Below are positions 1 through 14,018 of a DNA stretch of 64,000 nucleotides, piece after piece. How positions within the stretch are numbered: the stretch's first letter is position 1; each line of letters begins with the position of its first letter. Source of the DNA: an uncultured Actinomycetota bacterium (GTDB lineage: Bacteria > Actinomycetota > Actinomycetes > Actinomycetales > Dermatophilaceae); the NCBI GenBank assembly GCA_963781115.1, contig CAWADV010000006.1, positions 48,864-112,863 on the forward strand, read 5' to 3'. A program made the translations under genes and the position numbers. Below the pieces are notes generated by a model that saw only the letters and a list, made by a program, of their open reading frames with translations, was not told where the DNA came from and searched no databases.

Positions 1-1532
1 ACAGGGTCCACGGGAAGGCCGCCGGAGCGGCGAACGCCAGCCCGGTCTGCTGAGCCGCGGCCCAGAAGGCCAGCGCCTCACGGGCCCCCGAGTCCGGCGA
101 GGCCACGACGAGCGCCTCGTCACCGGTCAGCGGCAGACCCGCCTCGCGCAGCGTCCGCGCGGCCCAGGCGGCCACCGTGTCGGCGGTCGCGGTCAGCGGC
201 GGGCTGACCCACTCCAGCTCGGTCACCTCAGCGGCTGCCGGGGACGCTGCCGGGGAGGCTGCCGGGGCGGCTGTCGGGCCGTCTGCCGCCGGCCAGTGCC
301 CGCCCTCGGCGTCGGACCGCCCGAGCAGCAGCGCAGAGTTGAGCCCGCCAAAGGCGAACCCGTTGCTGAGCACCCACTGCGCCTCCGGAGCCGGTCGCGC
401 CGCCAGCACGACATCGAGCCCGAGCGCCGCATCGACCTCGCCGACACCCGCGGTGGGCGGCAGCACCCTCTCCTGCAGCGCCTGGATCACGACGACCGCC
501 TCGACCGCCGTCGCCGCCCCGAGGCTGTGCCCGAGGGCACCCTTGACGCCGCTCACCGGCGGCACGGAGTCGCCGAACACCGTGTGCAGCGCCAGCGCCT
601 CGGCCGCGTCCGAGCGCGGAGTGCCGGTGCCATGCGGGCTGACCCAGCCGACACGGTCCGGCGTGAGGCCCGCGGCCGCGATCCCGGCGCGCATCGCCGC
701 CGCCGCCATCGAGCCGTCCTCCCGTGGCGCCGTCGGGTGGTGTGCGTCCGCGCTCAGCCCCAGGCCGCCGACCAGGGCACGCACCGGCCGGGCCGCCGTC
801 GAGCGCGTCCTCCTCACGGCACAGGACGACGAACGCCGCGGCCTCACCCAGCGTCATCCCCCGCCGACCCGCCCCGAACGGCGCACAGCCCTGGGGCGCC
901 ATCGCCCGCATCCGCGCGAACCCGACCATCGCGATCCGGCTGAACGGCTCGACACCCCCGGCCAGCGCAAAGTCCAGCTCCCCTGACGCGACCGCCGCAG
1001 CAGCCGCGCCGATCGCATAGTTCCCCGCCGCGCAGGCCGTGCCATAGGTCGCTCGCCGACCGGTGAGACCCCACCGCCCCGCGACGGCCTCGGCGAACAC
1101 CTGCCCGCCCCCCTCGGCCAGGTCGAACACGCCGTCCGACCACGCGGCCTCATAGACCGCCGACTCGCCCATGGTGGTGCCCACGAAGCAGCCCACCCGC
1201 GTCGGGTCGACGCCGTCGGCCAGCGTGTGGCCGTGCAGGGTCTCGCCGCGCAGGGTCTCACCGCGCAGGGTCTCACCGTCCAGCAGCCCGGCCTGCCGCA
1301 ACGCCTCCTGCGCCGCGACCAGCCCCAGTGCCCTCCCGCGCTGCCGCGGGTCAGATGGAGCCCAGCCGCCGTCCTCGACGCGGCAGGCGACGTCGAGCGG
1401 GTGGCCCTCGGTGCGCAGGTCGGGCCAGGCGCGCACCGCCGAGGCTCCTGACACCAGTGCCGCCCAGGTGCTGGCCACATCGCCGCCCAGCGCGCTGACC
1501 AGCCCGGTCCCGATGACGGCCACCCGGGTCAC
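1..1532 (-). CDS. beta-ketoacyl-ACP synthase (FabF-like) with fused C-terminal degenerate KS/chain-length-factor-like domain; frameshift ~790; runs off left edge
   Basis: N-term MTRVAVIGTGLVSALG and active-site TACAAG. After a 1-nt shift near 790 the frame gives DAHHPTAP, HGTGT, KGALGHSLGA and SNGFAFGGLNS, then continues without a stop through a PAAS linker into EALAFWAAAQQTGLAFAAPAAFPWTL at the window edge. Confidence 0.85.
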
Positions 1533-2514
1533 GAGGCGACCTCCTCCCGGCGCGGCAGGCCGAAGGCCGGCCCGTCCACCAGGGGTGCCGTCGGGTCGCC
1601 GGTCAGCCGGTAGTAGGCGGCGTGCGGGTCGTGTGGTGCCACGGCCACGACCAGGTCGCCGATGGTGGCGGCGGTCGGCAGCGCCCGGGTGATCCGCAGC
1701 GCCCAGCGGGCGTTCGCCGTATGCAGCGTGGGCCCGACCGCCCCGAGCGCCGCGGCGGCGACGCCGAGCAGCGGCATCGCCTCGGCGAACGACAGGCCGG
1801 TCCGCTGGCGGCTGGCGGTCCGGCAGGTCAACGACACGATCGCGCCGGCGGGTGCGCCCGGCCCTGGGGTCAGGTGGTGCGCGCGCAGACCCGCATAGCC
1901 GACCCAGCCCACCGGCCGGCCGTGCCCGACATAGACGCCCACGGCGGGCCCGCTGGCCAGCAGGTCGGCGAGGTCCTCGCGGGTCAGGTCGTACGCCGTC
2001 GCGCGCAGCGTGGGCTGGCCCATCGAGCGGCTGAGCCCGACGATCCGCTCGGCGAGGTCGTCATAGCGCGGATGCCGCTCACCGAGCACCGTCAACGTGC
2101 GCGAGGGTGCGGTATGGCGGTCCGCTGCGGCCGAGCCGCCCGCCGGTGCACGGCGGCCGCAGCCTCGGCGAACCGGCCCAGGGCTTCAGCACCGGTGTCG
2201 GGCAGGAACGCGACCGGCACCGTCCGCCCGTCCAGTGCGGTCACCACCGGGCCCGGGAGCACGGTGTGTGGCGACCGGCGCCGGGGTGCGACCACGAGCA
2301 GGGCGTCGGCGTCCGCCGCGAGCTCGGCGAGCCGCGCGACAGCGGCGCGGTCCGGCCCTCCGCCGGGGCTGCCGGCGCAGGGTCGGTCCACCCCGCTGTG
2401 CTGCCAGGGGAGCACGCGCACCGAGCCGCGCGCGCGCCATACCGACAGCAACGGGAGGAGGGCCTGCGTGGCCGGCGCGTCAGCCACCACGCAGACCCTC
2501 GTCGGGGGGAGCAC
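1529..2514 (-). CDS. peptidase C25 (gingipain)/caspase-fold cysteine protease-like protein; frameshift ~2095
   Basis: ORFs 2092..2514 and 1529..2095 join. Motifs VYVGHG..W (His), IVSLTC (Cys), SFAE and YRLTGDP match the C25 catalytic domain. No signal peptide; overlaps the KS start codon. Confidence 0.7.
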
Positions 2515-2517
2515 CGC

Positions 2518-5421
2518 TCAGGCCGCCCGGACCAGGTCGACGTAGGGCCGCCACGCGGTGGCGTCCAGAGCCGGAGTGGCCAGGAAGGTCCGGGCATACC
2601 AGTGCATGATGATCTGCGCCTGCATCTCGGGGTTGAAGGTGTCCCAGTTGGAGGCGTCGGCGACCAGGTCGTCGGCTCCGTCCTCGCCGGTGAACTGGCC
2701 GACCGGCCCGGACTCCGTCGCGGTGCCGAAGTCCTTCTTCAGGCTGATCGTCGGGCTGTCGGTGTCGTTGTAGCCGTAGTTGTAGCCGCTGGTCCCGACA
2801 CCTGCTCCGGTCGCCTGGGCGAACACGGCGTCAGCCAGGTAGGCCGAGCCGTTGTGCTGGTACTGCCAGACGTGGGTCAGCTCGTGGATCATCGTGCGCC
2901 GGCCCAGACCGCCCTCGTCGACGTCGAAGTTGACCAGCGAGTTGGTCACGAAGGCCCGGGACGCCTCGTTGCCGGAGAAGAAGTCCTGCACCGCGAAGAT
3001 GATGTCGTTGACCGGGTCGTCGACCGCGAAGTAGATGTGGTCGTAGTCCAGCGAGTCCTCGAACACCAGCCTGGCCTCGGCGATCTCCTGTGCGGTCATC
3101 GCGCGGTATCCGGCCAGCCCGCTGAGCAGGATGCTCACGGCCGCTCCGAGCGCAGCACCAGCCGCGCTGAGTGCCGCCTGCAGGATCGCCGCCATGCTCT
3201 GCCCGACCGCCTTGGCCGAGCGGATGAACGCCTCCCACGCGGTCTCGCCGAGGGTCCAGACGTTGTCGGCGATCTCGCCCAGGGTCTTGCCGATGGCGTC
3301 CAGCGCCTTGAGCAGGTTGTCCAGCCCCTGGCCGGGGTTGGCCAGCGTCGCGGCGGCGAGCTGGGCGATCGTCTTGCCCAGCGCGAGCAGTGACTTGACC
3401 GACTCGGTGAGCACCTGCAGCGAACGGTCCAGCGCCCAGGCGAGCACCTCGACCAGCTGCTTGCCGGCGTCGAGCGCACCCTTGATCGCTGCCCCGAGCG
3501 CCGGAAGGGCGTCCTTGGCGATGTAGGACAGGACGTACTCGATGCTGTTGCCGACGCGGACGGTGGCCTCGGCCAGCAGCTCGATCGCCGCGTTGCCCAG
3601 CGCCTGCGCCCACTCGATCGCCGTGGAGATCGCCTCGCCGGCGGCCTCGATGGTCAGCAGGATCGAGTCGAACATCGCCGCCCCCTGGGCACGGGCCCAG
3701 TCCAGGATCTCGGTGACGCTCTTCTTGACGAAGCGCACCGCGAGGACGGCCTGCCGCCACATCTCGCTGGCGAGTGCCTCGCCCCGCTGGATCAGCCACT
3801 CGAAGACGTCGCCGACCGGGCCCAGGGCCTGCAGCACGCCGGTGACCAGCTTGCGCAGGACGAAGTAGCCGGAGGTGACGACCGCTTCGAGCAGGTCGGC
3901 CACCGCCGCCCCGGCCTGCAGCGCCGCGTGCACGAACCGGGCCGCGACCCGGTAGGTGAACTCGACCATCGACTTGGCGAACTCGGCGACCGTCTTGCCG
4001 AGCTCGAAGGCCGCCTTGAGGACATCGCGCAGGATGCCGAAGGCGATGTTGGTCAGGTCCCTGATCACGGTGATCAGCGACTTGCCCAGGTCGAAGAGGA
4101 CCTGCACGACGTTCTTGACCGCGTTGAAGCCGGCGGCCGCGATGTTGTTGAACAGGTCGACGAAGGTCTTGCCGGCGGACAGGATGCCCTGGACGATGGC
4201 GCGGCCGATGTCGGCGGCGACCGAGGCGGCGTGCGCCAGCAGGTCGGCGAGCGACTCGCCGATCTGGGCCAGCGCCTGGGCCACCCGCTGCACGAAGGCG
4301 GCGCCCGCCGCGATGGTCGAGTTGACGATGTCGGTCAGCGTGCGGCCGAGGTCGCTGAACGAGCGGACCACCTGGGTCAGCAGGTCCTGCGGGCGGGTCA
4401 GCAGGGTCAGCATGATCTCGCCCATCGCCTTGCCCATCGCCACGAGCGCGCGCACGACATTGTCGACCAGGGTGAGGCCGACCAGGATCGCCTGCTCGAG
4501 GATGTTGCCGATCGTCTTGCCGATCGTGATCAGCGCCTCGACCGCCTTGCGGACCAGGGACACGGTGGCGTTGGCGATCGTCTGGAGCAGCTGGACGAGC
4601 GTGCGTCCGAGCTGGTCGATGGCGCGGAAGACGTCGACGATGACGCTCTGCGCCAGCTCGAGGGCAGCCATCACGATGTTCTTCATCGCGATGCCGATCT
4701 GCTCCAGGCCTTGCAGCATCTTGCGGAGCACGGCCAGGCCGGCCGTGGCCAGCTTGTCGACGAGGGCGACCAGGCTGCTCGCGGCCTGGTAGAGGGCGAA
4801 GGCCAGGTTCTTGACCTCCTCGATCGCCCAGTTCACGACGTCGGAGATGGCGTCGACGAACGCCTGGCCGATGGTGTTGAGGGCGCCGACGACGGCGTTG
4901 ACCGCGTCGGAGAGGGCATCGCCGATGTCGTCGATGAGGTCGCCGATCGGGTCGTCGAAGTCCGGCTCGGGCAGGCCGGCGGCTCGGGCGCGCATGACCC
5001 CTCCGGCGTCGCGCAGCCACGCCCCGACCTCCTTGGCCGCGGCCTTGTCCACGTTGCCGTCCGGCTTGGTGACCAGGGACTCCATCAGGGCGTGGCCCTG
5101 GACGCGCGGCAGCAGCGAGATGGCCTGCACGACGCCGCGGCCCTGGCCCTCCTGGCGGTAGCCCTTGATCAGCGCCCGGCGGTGGGTGTCGTCCATCGCG
5201 GCGACCGACTGGAACAGCTGGCGGTGGTCGTCCTGGGTCTCCAGCGTCGCGGCATACCCCCGGGCCAGCGCGACGGCCCGGTTGGGGCTGCGGTCGAAGG
5301 CCGCGGTGAAGGCCGGGGCCACCTCGACGGCGACGAACTCGGTCTTCTTCAGCTCCGAGCGGAGCGTCTTGAGGTCGGCGATCGGGATGGTCTCGGTGGC
5401 GGCGGTGATGCGGTTGCTCAT
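2518..5421 (-). CDS. large helical-repeat protein (~20 x 29 aa) with C-terminal HExxH metallopeptidase-like (DUF4157/eCIS-core-like) domain
   Basis: Start MSNRITAAT at 5421 with GGAG upstream; repeats begin (L/I/A)G(K/R)(T/S); C-terminal MIHELTHVWQYQ, YNYG and FNPEMQAQI. Confidence 0.8.
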   Translation of the reverse strand: MSNRITAATETIPIADLKTLRSELKKTEFVAVEVAPAFTAAFDRSPNRAVALARGYAATLETQDDHRQLFQSVAAMDDTHRRALIKGYRQEGQGRGVVQAISLLPRVQGHALMESLVTKPDGNVDKAAAKEVGAWLRDAGGVMRARAAGLPEPDFDDPIGDLIDDIGDALSDAVNAVVGALNTIGQAFVDAISDVVNWAIEEVKNLAFALYQAASSLVALVDKLATAGLAVLRKMLQGLEQIGIAMKNIVMAALELAQSVIVDVFRAIDQLGRTLVQLLQTIANATVSLVRKAVEALITIGKTIGNILEQAILVGLTLVDNVVRALVAMGKAMGEIMLTLLTRPQDLLTQVVRSFSDLGRTLTDIVNSTIAAGAAFVQRVAQALAQIGESLADLLAHAASVAADIGRAIVQGILSAGKTFVDLFNNIAAAGFNAVKNVVQVLFDLGKSLITVIRDLTNIAFGILRDVLKAAFELGKTVAEFAKSMVEFTYRVAARFVHAALQAGAAVADLLEAVVTSGYFVLRKLVTGVLQALGPVGDVFEWLIQRGEALASEMWRQAVLAVRFVKKSVTEILDWARAQGAAMFDSILLTIEAAGEAISTAIEWAQALGNAAIELLAEATVRVGNSIEYVLSYIAKDALPALGAAIKGALDAGKQLVEVLAWALDRSLQVLTESVKSLLALGKTIAQLAAATLANPGQGLDNLLKALDAIGKTLGEIADNVWTLGETAWEAFIRSAKAVGQSMAAILQAALSAAGAALGAAVSILLSGLAGYRAMTAQEIAEARLVFEDSLDYDHIYFAVDDPVNDIIFAVQDFFSGNEASRAFVTNSLVNFDVDEGGLGRRTMIHELTHVWQYQHNGSAYLADAVFAQATGAGVGTSGYNYGYNDTDSPTISLKKDFGTATESGPVGQFTGEDGADDLVADASNWDTFNPEMQAQIIMHWYARTFLATPALDATAWRPYVDLVRAA

Positions 5422-5495
5422 CGTGTCTCCTGGTGGGCGTGCCCGGCTCGGGCGGATGGCTGGTGTGCGCGGTGGATCTGGCAACGGGGGCCGCC

Positions 5496-5744
5496 TCAGA
5501 CGGCGACGAGGCTCTCCTGCAGGTAGTCGACGACCAGGTCGACCGAACGCAGCCGGTCGTAGTCGCGGTCGTCGACGGCGATGCCGAAGCGGAACTCCAG
5601 CCGCGCGACGAACTCCAGGACCGTCAGGCTGTCCAGGTCGAGGTCGTACTTGAACTCCGCCGAGCCGTCGACGCCCTCGGGCAGCTGCGGTGCAGCGGCC
5701 TTGAGCTCGTCGCGGACGATCTGGGTGACGGTGTTGCGGTCCAT
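5496..5744 (-). CDS. acyl carrier protein
   Basis: 82-aa acidic protein with DLDLDSL phosphopantetheine Ser motif and LEFRFGIAV. Confidence 0.9.
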   Translation of the reverse strand: MDRNTVTQIVRDELKAAAPQLPEGVDGSAEFKYDLDLDSLTVLEFVARLEFRFGIAVDDRDYDRLRSVDLVVDYLQESLVAV

Positions 5745-11680: not shown

Positions 11681-14018
11681 ATGGCAACAAAGCAACGCCA
11701 GCCGCTGGGCAGGCGTCGGGAGGCCGTCGAGGTCACCCAGACTCTCAGTGAGGCGCGCAAGCGCACGCTGACCCTCACCGCCCTCGGTCCACAGACCGAC
11801 CTCGCGGCCAAGCTGCTCGGCATGGAGTCGGGCAACACCACCTTCGAGGAGCTGTCCTGCGTGGGCCTGACGCCCTCGCTCGACCAGCTCACCGCCGTCG
11901 TCCTGCTCAACGCCAACGGCGGCTACTCCGGACCACTGTGTGGTGCCGGATCGACCGAGCACGTCAGGTTCTACGTCAGCAACGACGGCGGCGGCACCTG
12001 GAACGACGCCGGCGCGGACTCGTTCTCGGCCTACGACACGCCCGGCCCACGCCCGCTTCACCAGGCGGTCAACGTCGTCGCGCCGATGCGCAAGACCTTC
12101 TGCTGGGTCACCAACCACCCGATGGTGCGCGCCATCCTGTCGTGGGCGGTCGCGCCGCCCGCCGGGCAGCCGGACTGGGTGCCGGTATGGGGTGACGTCC
12201 GCACCGTGCGGGTCCGTCCGCGCAGCCGGCGGTTCCCGTTCTTCGGCGACCTCGTCGAGATCGGCTCGGTGACCATCAGCAAGGAGCTCGCCCAGCTGGT
12301 GGAGATGAAGACGCCGATCACGCTGGTCCCGCAGCCCTCGCCCACCGTGCAGGAGCTGGCCAAGGCCTACCGCAGGGCCAAGGTGGAGCCGCACCGCATC
12401 GCCTTCCCGACCTTCCTCAAGGCACAGGCGACGGGCAGCCTGCTCGAGCCATCGGTGCACCGTCAGCGAGTCGGGCTCACGCCCGACCCCGACGGTGGTC
12501 CCGGGCCCGTTCCCGCCCGGCCCGTTCCCGCCCGGGCCGTTCCCGCCGGACCCCCCCGGTCCGTTCCCGCCCGATCCCCCGGTGCCGCCGCCGTTCCCGC
12601 CCGTCGGCCCCCCGTTCACCCTCGGCCTGGAGGCGGTGCTGGCCGACCTCAAGATCGACCTGTCCGAGTTCCTCGAGCTGGTCGCGACGACCGACGGCAA
12701 CACCACCTACGAGGAGCTGGGCTGTGTCGGCTACGACCCGGTGCAGGACGCGCTCAACGGGGTCTTCACGGTCAAGCGGTCCTCCGGCTACAGCGGCGGC
12801 CCGTGCACCGACGGCTCGACCGAGTACGTCGCCTTCTGGGTCGACTGGGGCTCCGGCTGGGACTACGTCGGCACCACGTCGACGACGGTCTACGACGAGG
12901 ACGTCCCCGACGAGGGCCTGCAGTTCGCGGTCTACCACCCGGTGGGGTCCTACCCGCACCGCCGGCACTGCACCGACGGACCCGTGCAGCCGCAGGTCAG
13001 GGCGATCCTGTCGTGGCAGCAGCCGCCACCGCCGGGCAACCCCGACTGGGTGCCCACCTGGGGCAACCGCGAGGAGGGCGACGTCGAGCTGCCCAAGGGA
13101 GCGGTCACCCCGCTCATGCCGGTGCTCGAGAGCGTCAGCGGGTATGCCGTGTGCCAGATCCACCCGGTCACCGGGCTGACCCACTCCCACGACCGTCCGT
13201 TCGGGGCCACCCTGGGCATCGCCGGCTTCATCCCCGGCGCTCCCGACCTGGCCCTGCCGCCGATGGCCTACCAGGTCACCGCCCACCAGCTCGACGGCTC
13301 CGGTGCGGTCATCTCCAGCGAGGTGCTGGACGACGACTTCACCACCTATGTCACCGAGTCCACGGGCGGCGGCTCACCGGTGCAGTACCCCGTGCTGCAG
13401 CAGGCGGACGCGGCCGGCTGGTTCACCTACCTGGCCGACCCCAACCCCAGCGGCAGCGGCTGGCGCCAGGTGCTGGGCAACCTGCTCTATCCCTGGAACA
13501 GCGCGCCCCGCACGGGCCGGTGGCAGATCGAGCTGCGGGCCAAGGACGCCGGCGGGATGGAGTATGCGGCGCAGGTCGTCACCTGCACCGACGGCTCCAC
13601 CCGTCAGCAGGCCAGGGTCCGGCTGGACCAGGCCAAGCCCGGCGTCGACCTGCAGATCCTCACCTACCAGCTGCCCGGCGACCCGGAGATCCCGGCGGGC
13701 AGCTGCATGAAGTTCCCGGTCGGCGCCATCCTGTCCGGCTCCTTCTCGGCCACCGACCAGCACTTCGACCACGTCTCGTTCTCGGTCGAGGGTGCCCCGT
13801 TCGGTGACCCCACACCCAGCGGCGACCCGCGGTGGACGATCACCGGCGCCACGGCATACCCGGCGGCGAGCACGAACGGCACGTCGGGAACGTGGAGCTT
13901 CAACACCGAGGGCATGCAGGCCTGCGGCTACGTGATGCGCCTGGTCGCCCGTGACCGGACCGTCAACGGCTCCGGCGGCTGGTGGGACGACGACGTGTTC
14001 GGGTTCTCCCTGGAGTGA
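11681..14018 (+). CDS. hypothetical protein with tandem duplicated Cys-containing domain and PGPFP linker; frameshift ~12470
   Basis: GGGAG RBS; GNTT(F/Y)EEL.CVG...GYSG..C..GSTE.V.F...VRAILSW..PP...PDWVP.WG occurs twice, once in each of the two ORFs. Confidence 0.75.

What the first reader, a model, noticed from the sequence alone, without database searches (positions are those of the whole stretch)
1..5744. Operon coupling fatty-acyl machinery (ACP, ketosynthase) with a giant repeat-metalloprotease protein and a gingipain/caspase-fold protease
Seen: four co-oriented genes in the order ACP (5496-5744), repeat/HExxH protein (2518-5421), C25-like protease (1529-2514), KS fusion (<1-1532). The last three are separated by a 3-bp gap and a 4-bp overlap. 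Known: type II FAS/PKS clusters do not normally contain proteases or large repeat proteins. Acyl-ACP-dependent protein acylation occurs in RTX toxins, and lipidation with caspase-like activation occurs in bacterial gasdermins. Inference: a dedicated system builds an acyl chain on its own ACP, cleaves the large protein (perhaps near the PEPDFDDP hinge before the repeats) and lipidates or lipid-loads it. The Cys-His enzyme could alternatively act as the acyltransferase. I do not recognise this architecture.
Basis: partly seen in the sequence, partly recalled or inferred. Interest (0 to 1): 0.85.

Follow-up and report, generated by a model that had tools for sequence, protein, structure and literature searches.

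The report
Protease-matured, lipid-linked rod protease operon
Bacteria from eight phyla carry an undescribed gene pair for a long helical protein tipped with a toxin-like zinc protease and a cysteine protease that likely cuts off its front cap, and about half add a three-gene fatty-acyl module that is predicted to attach a lipid to the cut end.

Summary
The operon is real and conserved. The 967-aa protein has a helical cap, a hinge, ~21 29-residue amphipathic repeats and a VgrG2b-like zinc-protease head with all four active-site residues. A C25 (PorU/gingipain-family) His-Cys protease follows it in 40 of 44 homologous loci. ACP, ketosynthase and a half-ketosynthase follow in 20 of 44, across five phyla. 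So rod plus protease is the core and the acyl module is optional. Corrections: the protease and KS genes are frameshifted in this assembly; ACP-first order and the KS fusion were seen only here. New leads: the hinge resembles a caspase-type site, Asp then Gly-hydrophobic in many module-less loci, Asp then a non-Gly, often acidic tip in all 17 module-linked ones. Heads are exchangeable (metallophosphoesterase variants). Carrier genomes more often hold a gp19-type tail-tube gene (18/27 against 71/320). Best model, untested: cleavage after the hinge Asp, then acylation of the new N-terminus, giving a membrane-anchored antibacterial rod. I found no paper describing it. This scan flagged the same operon in another genome (e1-4225205; part of that report later fell).

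The parts
5496..5744 (-). Dedicated acyl carrier protein, 82 aa; Ser codon of the DSL motif at 5628-5630
   Evidence: PF00550 E 5e-10; 51% identical to the ACP of the L003 operon
2518..5421 (-). Rod-gluzincin protein, 967 aa, intact
4981..5421 (-). N-terminal helical cap domain (residues 1-147); no signal-peptide-like hydrophobic stretch
   Evidence: AlphaFold pLDDT 95.8, pTM 0.89; no clear fold match, best Z 8.1; hydropathy check
4927..4980 (-). Hinge (residues 148-165); predicted cleavage after Asp156 (codon 4954-4956), inferred
   Evidence: low pLDDT 142-192; hinge classes across 139 homologues
3112..4953 (-). About 21 repeats of 29 aa forming an amphipathic helix (period 3.63), tape-measure-like, up to about 90 nm if extended
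   Evidence: PHROG tape-measure hits, best E 7e-18
2518..3111 (-). C-terminal VgrG2b/DUF4157-type zinc protease head; H846, E847, H850 (2872-2886) and E932 invariant
   Evidence: profile hit to PDB 6h56, E 5.9e-12; invariant columns; third-ligand Glu described in PMC6899460
1529..2514 (-). C25 (clan CD) cysteine protease, His codon 1922-1924, Cys codon 1823-1825; frame change at about 2152-2170 in this assembly
   Evidence: PF01364; family profile best matches PorU 6za2, E 1.5e-7; Cys invariant, His nearly invariant in 37 homologues
231..1532 (-). FabF-like ketosynthase with Cys-His-His triad (codons 1032-1034, 632-634, 527-529) plus Ala/Pro linker; frame change at about 781-807
   Evidence: PF00109/PF02801; triad kept in 20 aligned KSs; reads
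1..230 (-). Half-KS (CLF/CYF-like, no catalytic Cys), here fused to the KS; continues to 220 nt beyond the window edge
   Evidence: 166 bits here against at most 63 bits in 400 genomes of the same phylum

Best explanation
The operon encodes a capped helical rod with a VgrG2b-like zinc-protease tip and a C25 cysteine protease that likely cuts the rod after the hinge Asp, and its ACP/KS/half-KS trio is predicted to build an acyl chain that would be attached to the freed N-terminus. Shown: the anatomy, the intact catalytic residues, the linkage and the hinge pattern. Inferred step 1 (about 0.7): the protease removes the 156-residue cap. Inferred step 2 (about 0.4): KS/half-KS condense a host acyl-ACP with malonyl on the dedicated ACP. 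The C25 His-Cys pair, the only candidate transferase in the operon, moves the acyl group to the new amino end. The lipid would stand in for the hydrophobic Gly-Phe-Phe/Gly-Leu-Trp tip that many module-less relatives expose directly. Inferred step 3 (about 0.5): the matured protein anchors in a membrane and presents its protease head, most likely as an antibacterial effector released by lysis or through a tail tube.
For: Cognate C25 directly downstream in 40 of 44 loci; rod and C25 distances correlate at 0.77. Of 139 de-duplicated hinges, a regex classed 40 as Asp|x-[AP]-[VI], 31 as Asp|Gly-hydrophobic (at least L016 wrongly), 46 as non-Asp|Gly and 22 as other. All 17 de-duplicated module-linked hinges are Asp|non-Gly; about 12 of 17 module-less loci have Gly there (read by eye). 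A separate lineage with an Asp|non-Gly hinge (L103, L105) has a different, FabB-like KS plus ACP convergent on the protease. The closest solved relative of the protease is PorU, a C25 enzyme proposed to work through an acyl-enzyme to lipid-anchor proteins (PMC4560394, passages). The head matches an antibacterial gluzincin. Relatives with the same cap and rod end in a metallophosphoesterase (5 of 51 scanned), as polymorphic toxins do. N-terminal acylation from an ACP-bound chain is known in RiPP hybrids (10.1101/2023.10.25.564083, passages).
Against: No experiment. The hinge/module match is confounded by descent: the module maps to about one gain and one loss on a quick tree. L015 and L020 have Asp|non-Gly hinges with no module nearby and no half-KS orthologue found in their genomes. 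In one search the first three residues of 6 Gly-type tips scored 0.8-2.1 in hydropathy and 12 module-type tips -0.2 to 2.6, so the ranges overlap. PorU passes the cut protein to an amine, the opposite polarity to the transfer proposed here, and PorU's marker Arg is not conserved. There is no reductase, so a long saturated chain needs host enzymes. No conserved immunity gene or export gene was seen among neighbours. 46 of 139 hinges lack the Asp.
Confidence: 0.35

Rival explanations
1. The rod is a tape-measure-like cargo of a contractile injection system or orphan tail tube encoded elsewhere. The protease only matures it for loading, and the acyl module is accessory. This can be combined with the best explanation as its delivery route.
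For: gp19-type tube gene (PF06841) in 18 of 27 carrier genomes, against 14/60, 13/80, 14/50, 6/50, 7/40 and 17/40 in six lineage samples (pooled Fisher p 3e-6). Rod hits tape-measure families. DUF4157 marks eCIS effectors (PMC11297309, passages). Tme and Sle1 are tape-measure-related cargoes.
Against: 9 of 27 carriers have no tube hit. In G000, G074 (complete chromosome), G084 and G086 the tube gene is an orphan with no sheath or baseplate J found. No CIS genes were among 78 operon and neighbour proteins scanned. The head scores only E 0.055 on PF13699 and is C-terminal. Controls were drawn around tube-positive carriers, were not size-matched, and kin are not independent; against the richest control p is 0.08.
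Confidence: 0.2
2. It is an intracellular anti-phage or stress suicide module: activated C25 cleaves the rod, and the released fragment damages the producer's own membrane.
For: No part has a recognisable signal peptide (for the rod; C25 alignment). Distribution is patchy: none in 60 relatives, and the tree is mixed across phyla. Caspase-like protease plus EACC1 modules cleave near an Asp to free a membrane-active fragment (PMC12642450, passages).
Against: No sensor domain on the protease. No PADLOC match for 11 proteins except weak ZorA helix hits. Neighbours are mostly housekeeping genes; one GmrSD-domain gene was seen. VgrG2b-type heads are harmless in the cytoplasm and toxic in the periplasm.
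Confidence: 0.15
3. The acyl module makes a free or non-covalently bound lipid or polyketide. The amphipathic rod wraps or carries it like an apolipoprotein or phasin, with no covalent lipidation.
For: Strong single-face amphipathy. Recurrent Phasin_2 hits and one apolipoprotein hit. No recognised acyltransferase in the operon.
Against: No thioesterase or release enzyme. Phasin hits are mostly near or below cut-off. It does not explain the protease head or the hinge pattern.
Confidence: 0.12
4. The protease acts as the starter-loading enzyme. It cuts after Asp and passes the cap's C-terminal aspartyl group to the ACP thiol. KS/half-KS then extend it with malonyl, giving a protein-polyketide hybrid, possibly an aspartyl ketone that shuts the protease off.
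For: Minimal cispentacin-type clusters are ACP + KS + truncated partner + a ligase loading a dicarboxylic starter (PMC10698177, passages). Here the protease sits where the ligase is missing. This keeps PorU's polarity of transfer. All 17 module-linked hinges keep the Asp, and the clade that lost the module lost the Asp too.
Against: The KS scores 205 bits on the AmcF model against a cut-off of 325, and the half-KS hits no NCBIfam model in L003. A 17-kDa starter in a KS pocket has no precedent that I know of (own knowledge).
Confidence: 0.1
5. The system is real elsewhere, but this copy is decaying: the two frameshifts are genuine.
For: Two of four genes are broken in the assembly. No clean contig spans the protease break.
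Against: Related-strain contigs keep the KS frame. Other genes of this assembly are split too. The long rod gene and all catalytic codons are intact.
Confidence: 0.1

Closest known systems
VgrG2b C-terminal / Tpe1 gluzincin effectors (DUF4157; PDB 6h56)
   Same: Head domain homology (E 5.9e-12), HExxH plus third Glu, position at the tip of a long carrier
   Different: Carrier is a cap plus 29-aa helical rod, not a VgrG spike; no T6SS genes or conserved immunity gene next to it; paired with a cytoplasmic C25 protease
Tape-measure-related eCIS effectors Tme and Sle1/Sle2 (Streptomyces)
   Same: Long tape-measure-like helix plus DUF4157-family domain; carrier genomes enriched for tube genes
   Different: Not inside CIS clusters; peptidase is C-terminal; has its own protease and acyl module
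PorU sortase / gingipains (peptidase C25)
   Same: His-Cys dyad, best structural relatives of the protease family
   Different: Stand-alone ~300-340 aa enzyme without signal peptide or T9SS context; PorU marker Arg not conserved; acyl donor would be an ACP
Cispentacin/coronafacic acid KS-CYF minimal type II PKS (AmcB/F/G/H)
   Same: ACP + active KS + truncated KS-like partner
   Different: No AmcH-type ligase; below the AmcF cut-off; linked to a large protein and a protease
RiPP-lipid hybrids (goadvionins, lipoavitides, lipolanthines)
   Same: Dedicated acyl-building genes beside a ribosomal substrate; N-terminal acylation
   Different: Substrate here is an ~800-residue enzyme-tipped rod; no GNAT or FabH acyltransferase
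Protease-activated defence effectors (gasdermin, EACC1)
   Same: Clan CD protease beside a cleavable, membrane-active-looking partner
   Different: No sensor domain, no defence-library match, enzymatic head and acyl module

Membership tests
VgrG2b/Tpe1 gluzincin effectors | HExxH plus third Glu ligand in a VgrG2b-like fold | tested here: met
VgrG2b/Tpe1 gluzincin effectors | T6SS/VgrG linkage and adjacent immunity gene | tested here: not met
   no such recurring neighbour; gene calling was a simple ORF heuristic
VgrG2b/Tpe1 gluzincin effectors | Periplasmic antibacterial activity | not testable with these tools
   needs expression
eCIS tape-measure-related effectors | Encoded in or beside a CIS cluster | tested here: not met
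   own genome has only an orphan tube gene
eCIS tape-measure-related effectors | Host encodes a CIS tube and sheath | tested here: inconclusive
   tube in 18/27; sheath hit close to the tube hit in 11 of those, read from coordinates
eCIS tape-measure-related effectors | PF13699 domain above cut-off | tested here: not met
   14.1 bits against 22; relatives 19.7-21.6
Peptidase C25 (clan CD) | His-Gly and Cys dyad, PF01364 | tested here: met
   several homologues score around the cut-off
PorU sortases | Conserved Arg 32 residues after the catalytic Cys; T9SS context | tested here: not met
   aligned column is variable; feature from PMC4560394
KS-CYF minimal type II PKS (AmcB/F/G/H) | ACP + KS with catalytic triad + truncated partner | tested here: met
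KS-CYF minimal type II PKS (AmcB/F/G/H) | AmcH-type ligase and AmcF orthology | tested here: not met
   no ligase in module loci; 204.6 bits against 325
RiPP-lipid hybrids | GNAT or FabH-type acyltransferase and short precursor peptide | tested here: not met
   no recurring gene of this kind
Protease-effector defence modules | Sensor-fused protease, defence-library match | tested here: not met
Protease-effector defence modules | Phage protection | not testable with these tools
   needs phage challenge

The most novel reading that the evidence does not exclude
A new route to protein lipidation: a gingipain-family enzyme both uncaps a 90-nm polymorphic rod toxin and acylates it with a chain built on a dedicated ACP by a minimal KS/half-KS pair, and the product is delivered through tail tubes encoded in trans.
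Probability: 0.25. Interest if true: 0.9.

Novelty: categorically new. Interest (0 to 1): 0.72.

Why it matters
Each part has known relatives, but I found no described system joining them. If right, it adds a protease-coupled, ACP-dependent way to lipidate a large protein. It also adds a new carrier for polymorphic toxins spread by transfer across eight phyla. It would give a testable role to C25 enzymes outside the type IX secretion system and to some orphan tail-tube genes. An intact copy exists in a cultured isolate with a complete chromosome (L003), so the key tests are ordinary biochemistry.

Tried and rejected
Complex prediction of C25 with the cap-hinge region: no verdict (score 0.08, mark 0.32); not used as evidence. 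Whole-protein AlphaFold model: pLDDT 64, pTM 0.34, one long helix; Foldseek had no match at E <= 0.001, and the top row, an umbrella-toxin subunit at TM 0.13, was set aside. Cap-domain fold searches gave only generic helical repeats; a death-like adaptor fold was not listed, which does not exclude it. C25 columns that track the hinge Asp: many differ, all confounded with one clade. No RNA holder listed. Viral contigs: 4 head-only matches. Plasmids: no match with the L003 protease. Atlas search with homologue P0001 returned unnamed or auto-named clusters only. A larger cluster to the left: rejected. Half-KS orthologue elsewhere in 10 module-less genomes: only matches of 41.5 bits or less in 286-781-aa frames. 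Cognate C25 elsewhere in the genomes of L010, L021, L022, L030: not found. The careful tree did not finish; the quick tree was used. Literature searches for this architecture listed nothing describing it; subscription journals and supplements were not seen.

Full report
Observation. The four minus-strand genes, the 3-bp gap and the 4-bp overlap are as described. Two points were not in the finding. The protease gene changes frame at about 2152-2170 and the KS at about 781-807. Contigs from runs X1 and X2 lack one base at 798/801 and keep the KS open. Support at the protease break is one low-depth contig. Three of 21 test matches in this 85%-complete assembly are split, including this KS, so assembly error is the likelier cause. 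The KS runs 220 nt past the window and is fused to a half-KS; the next gene is an LCP protein.

The large protein. Residues 1-147 form a confident helical domain (pLDDT 95.8) with no clear fold match (best Z 8.1). A flexible hinge follows. About 21 repeats of 29 residues have a hydrophobic period of 3.63, a straight amphipathic helix of up to about 90 nm. This part hits phage tape-measure families (best E 7e-18), which may reflect shared periodicity rather than descent. The head is homologous to the VgrG2b gluzincin (E 5.9e-12), with both His, the catalytic Glu and the third-ligand Glu invariant. Lengths in the aligned loci run from 580 to about 1050 aa. Five of 51 scanned relatives end in a metallophosphoesterase instead.

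Conservation. The gene was not found in 60 relatives of the host. Homologues occur in eight phyla among 26 genome loci. A cognate C25 gene follows the rod in 40 of 44. The full ACP-KS-halfKS module follows in 20: 14 of 26 genome loci from five phyla (two with only weak ACP scores) and 6 of 18 metagenome loci (two are near-duplicates). Three have a different FabB-like KS and ACP on the opposite strand. Seventeen have rod plus protease only, and 4 have no cognate protease, though L030 has another C25-family gene. Pairwise distances correlate between genes (0.50-0.78); GC content was not controlled. The half-KS looks dedicated: 166 bits here against at most 63 in 400 genomes of the same phylum, with 8 candidates scored per genome; that tally includes unpublished G434. 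On a quick tree of 40 rows (L028 left out) the module is about one gain and one loss, and host phyla are interleaved.

The enzymes. The protease keeps Cys in all and His in nearly all of 37 homologues. Its profile best matches PorU, then gingipain R. PorU's marker Arg is not conserved. The KS has the Cys-His-His triad and falls below every NCBIfam cut-off, including FabF and AmcF. The half-KS lacks the Cys. ACP + KS + truncated partner resembles the cispentacin minimal set, which also has a starter ligase (PMC10698177, passages). Here no ligase, reductase, thioesterase or recognised acyltransferase recurs.

The hinge. Across 139 de-duplicated homologues a regex found Asp before the first amphipathic helix in 71 (40 + 31, at least one misassigned), a Gly without Asp in 46, and neither in 22. 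Many read Asp|Gly-Phe-Phe or Asp|Gly-Leu-Trp, which I recognise from own knowledge as a caspase-type site before a membrane-seeking helix. All 17 module-linked hinges read Asp|non-Gly (here Asp156|Asp-Pro-Ile). About 12 of 17 module-less loci have Gly. L015 and L020 are exceptions, the pattern rests on one or two evolutionary events, and tip hydropathy overlaps between classes. It is a lead, not a proof.

Tail tubes. A gp19-type tube gene is in 18 of 27 carrier genomes against 71 of 320 controls. Controls were centred on tube-positive carriers, were not size-matched and were not screened for the rod gene except the 60 relatives. In this genome and three others the tube gene is an orphan without sheath or baseplate J, and nine carriers have none. 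Tube delivery is possible but cannot be obligatory.

Mechanism. I commit to cleavage after the hinge Asp followed, in module-carrying operons, by acylation of the new N-terminus, giving a membrane-anchored rod with an antibacterial protease tip (0.35 overall; cleavage alone about 0.7). Rivals are CIS cargo (0.2), suicide defence (0.15), non-covalent lipid carrier (0.12), protease as starter-loader (0.1) and a decayed copy (0.1).

Comparison and novelty. It works most like a cross between protease-activated effectors and RiPP-lipid hybrids, but fails membership tests for VgrG2b/T6SS effectors, eCIS-cluster effectors, PorU sortases, KS-CYF clusters and known defence modules. Papers: I read search passages only of PMC11126660, 10.1101/2025.11.06.686954, PMC11297309, PMC6899460, PMC10698177, PMC4560394, PMC12642450 and 10.1101/2023.10.25.564083; other papers were seen as listings. 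Four searches aimed at the architecture listed no description. Supplements, such as the amcG-cluster tables and polymorphic-toxin tables, were not read and could list these genes. I re-derived the order, spread and VgrG2b link here.

Noticed in passing
window 11681-14018 (+): Two overlapping ORFs (708 and 507 aa) in different frames appear to form one frameshifted protein with a duplicated Cys-containing domain around a Pro-Phe-Pro-Pro-Gly repeat; no Pfam match.
   Followed up: partly
G000:C2:811860-812249 (L176:11600-12259): Orphan gp19/TIGR02241 tail-tube gene with no sheath or baseplate J found in the genome; about 2.5 kb away is a papain-family protease fused to peptidoglycan-binding domains.
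   Followed up: partly
L015:7953-9710, L018:7889-9886, L020:8180-9775, L096:5249-7381: Four module-less loci have an LGFP-repeat protein directly upstream of the rod gene, a possible cell-wall targeting partner.
   Followed up: no
P0050, P0135, P0148, P0161, P0171: Same rod family ending in a calcineurin-like metallophosphoesterase instead of the zinc protease; gene context unknown.
   Followed up: partly
L030:11919-13514: A shorter rod subfamily member is followed by a different, longer C25-family protein (531 aa); many relatives of this subfamily have basic C-terminal tails.
   Followed up: no
L005, L006, L007, L008, L009, L088, L092; P0002-P0008 in part: Several rods carry a Lys-rich N-terminal extension of about 40-80 residues before the cap.
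   Followed up: no
L182:8175-10431: Two tube genes plus a CIS_tube/AAA fusion gene stand without nearby sheath genes, a reduced CIS remnant in a carrier genome.
   Followed up: no
window 1235-1276: A 15-nt tandem repeat inside the KS gene has one unit fewer in a contig of run X1.
   Followed up: no
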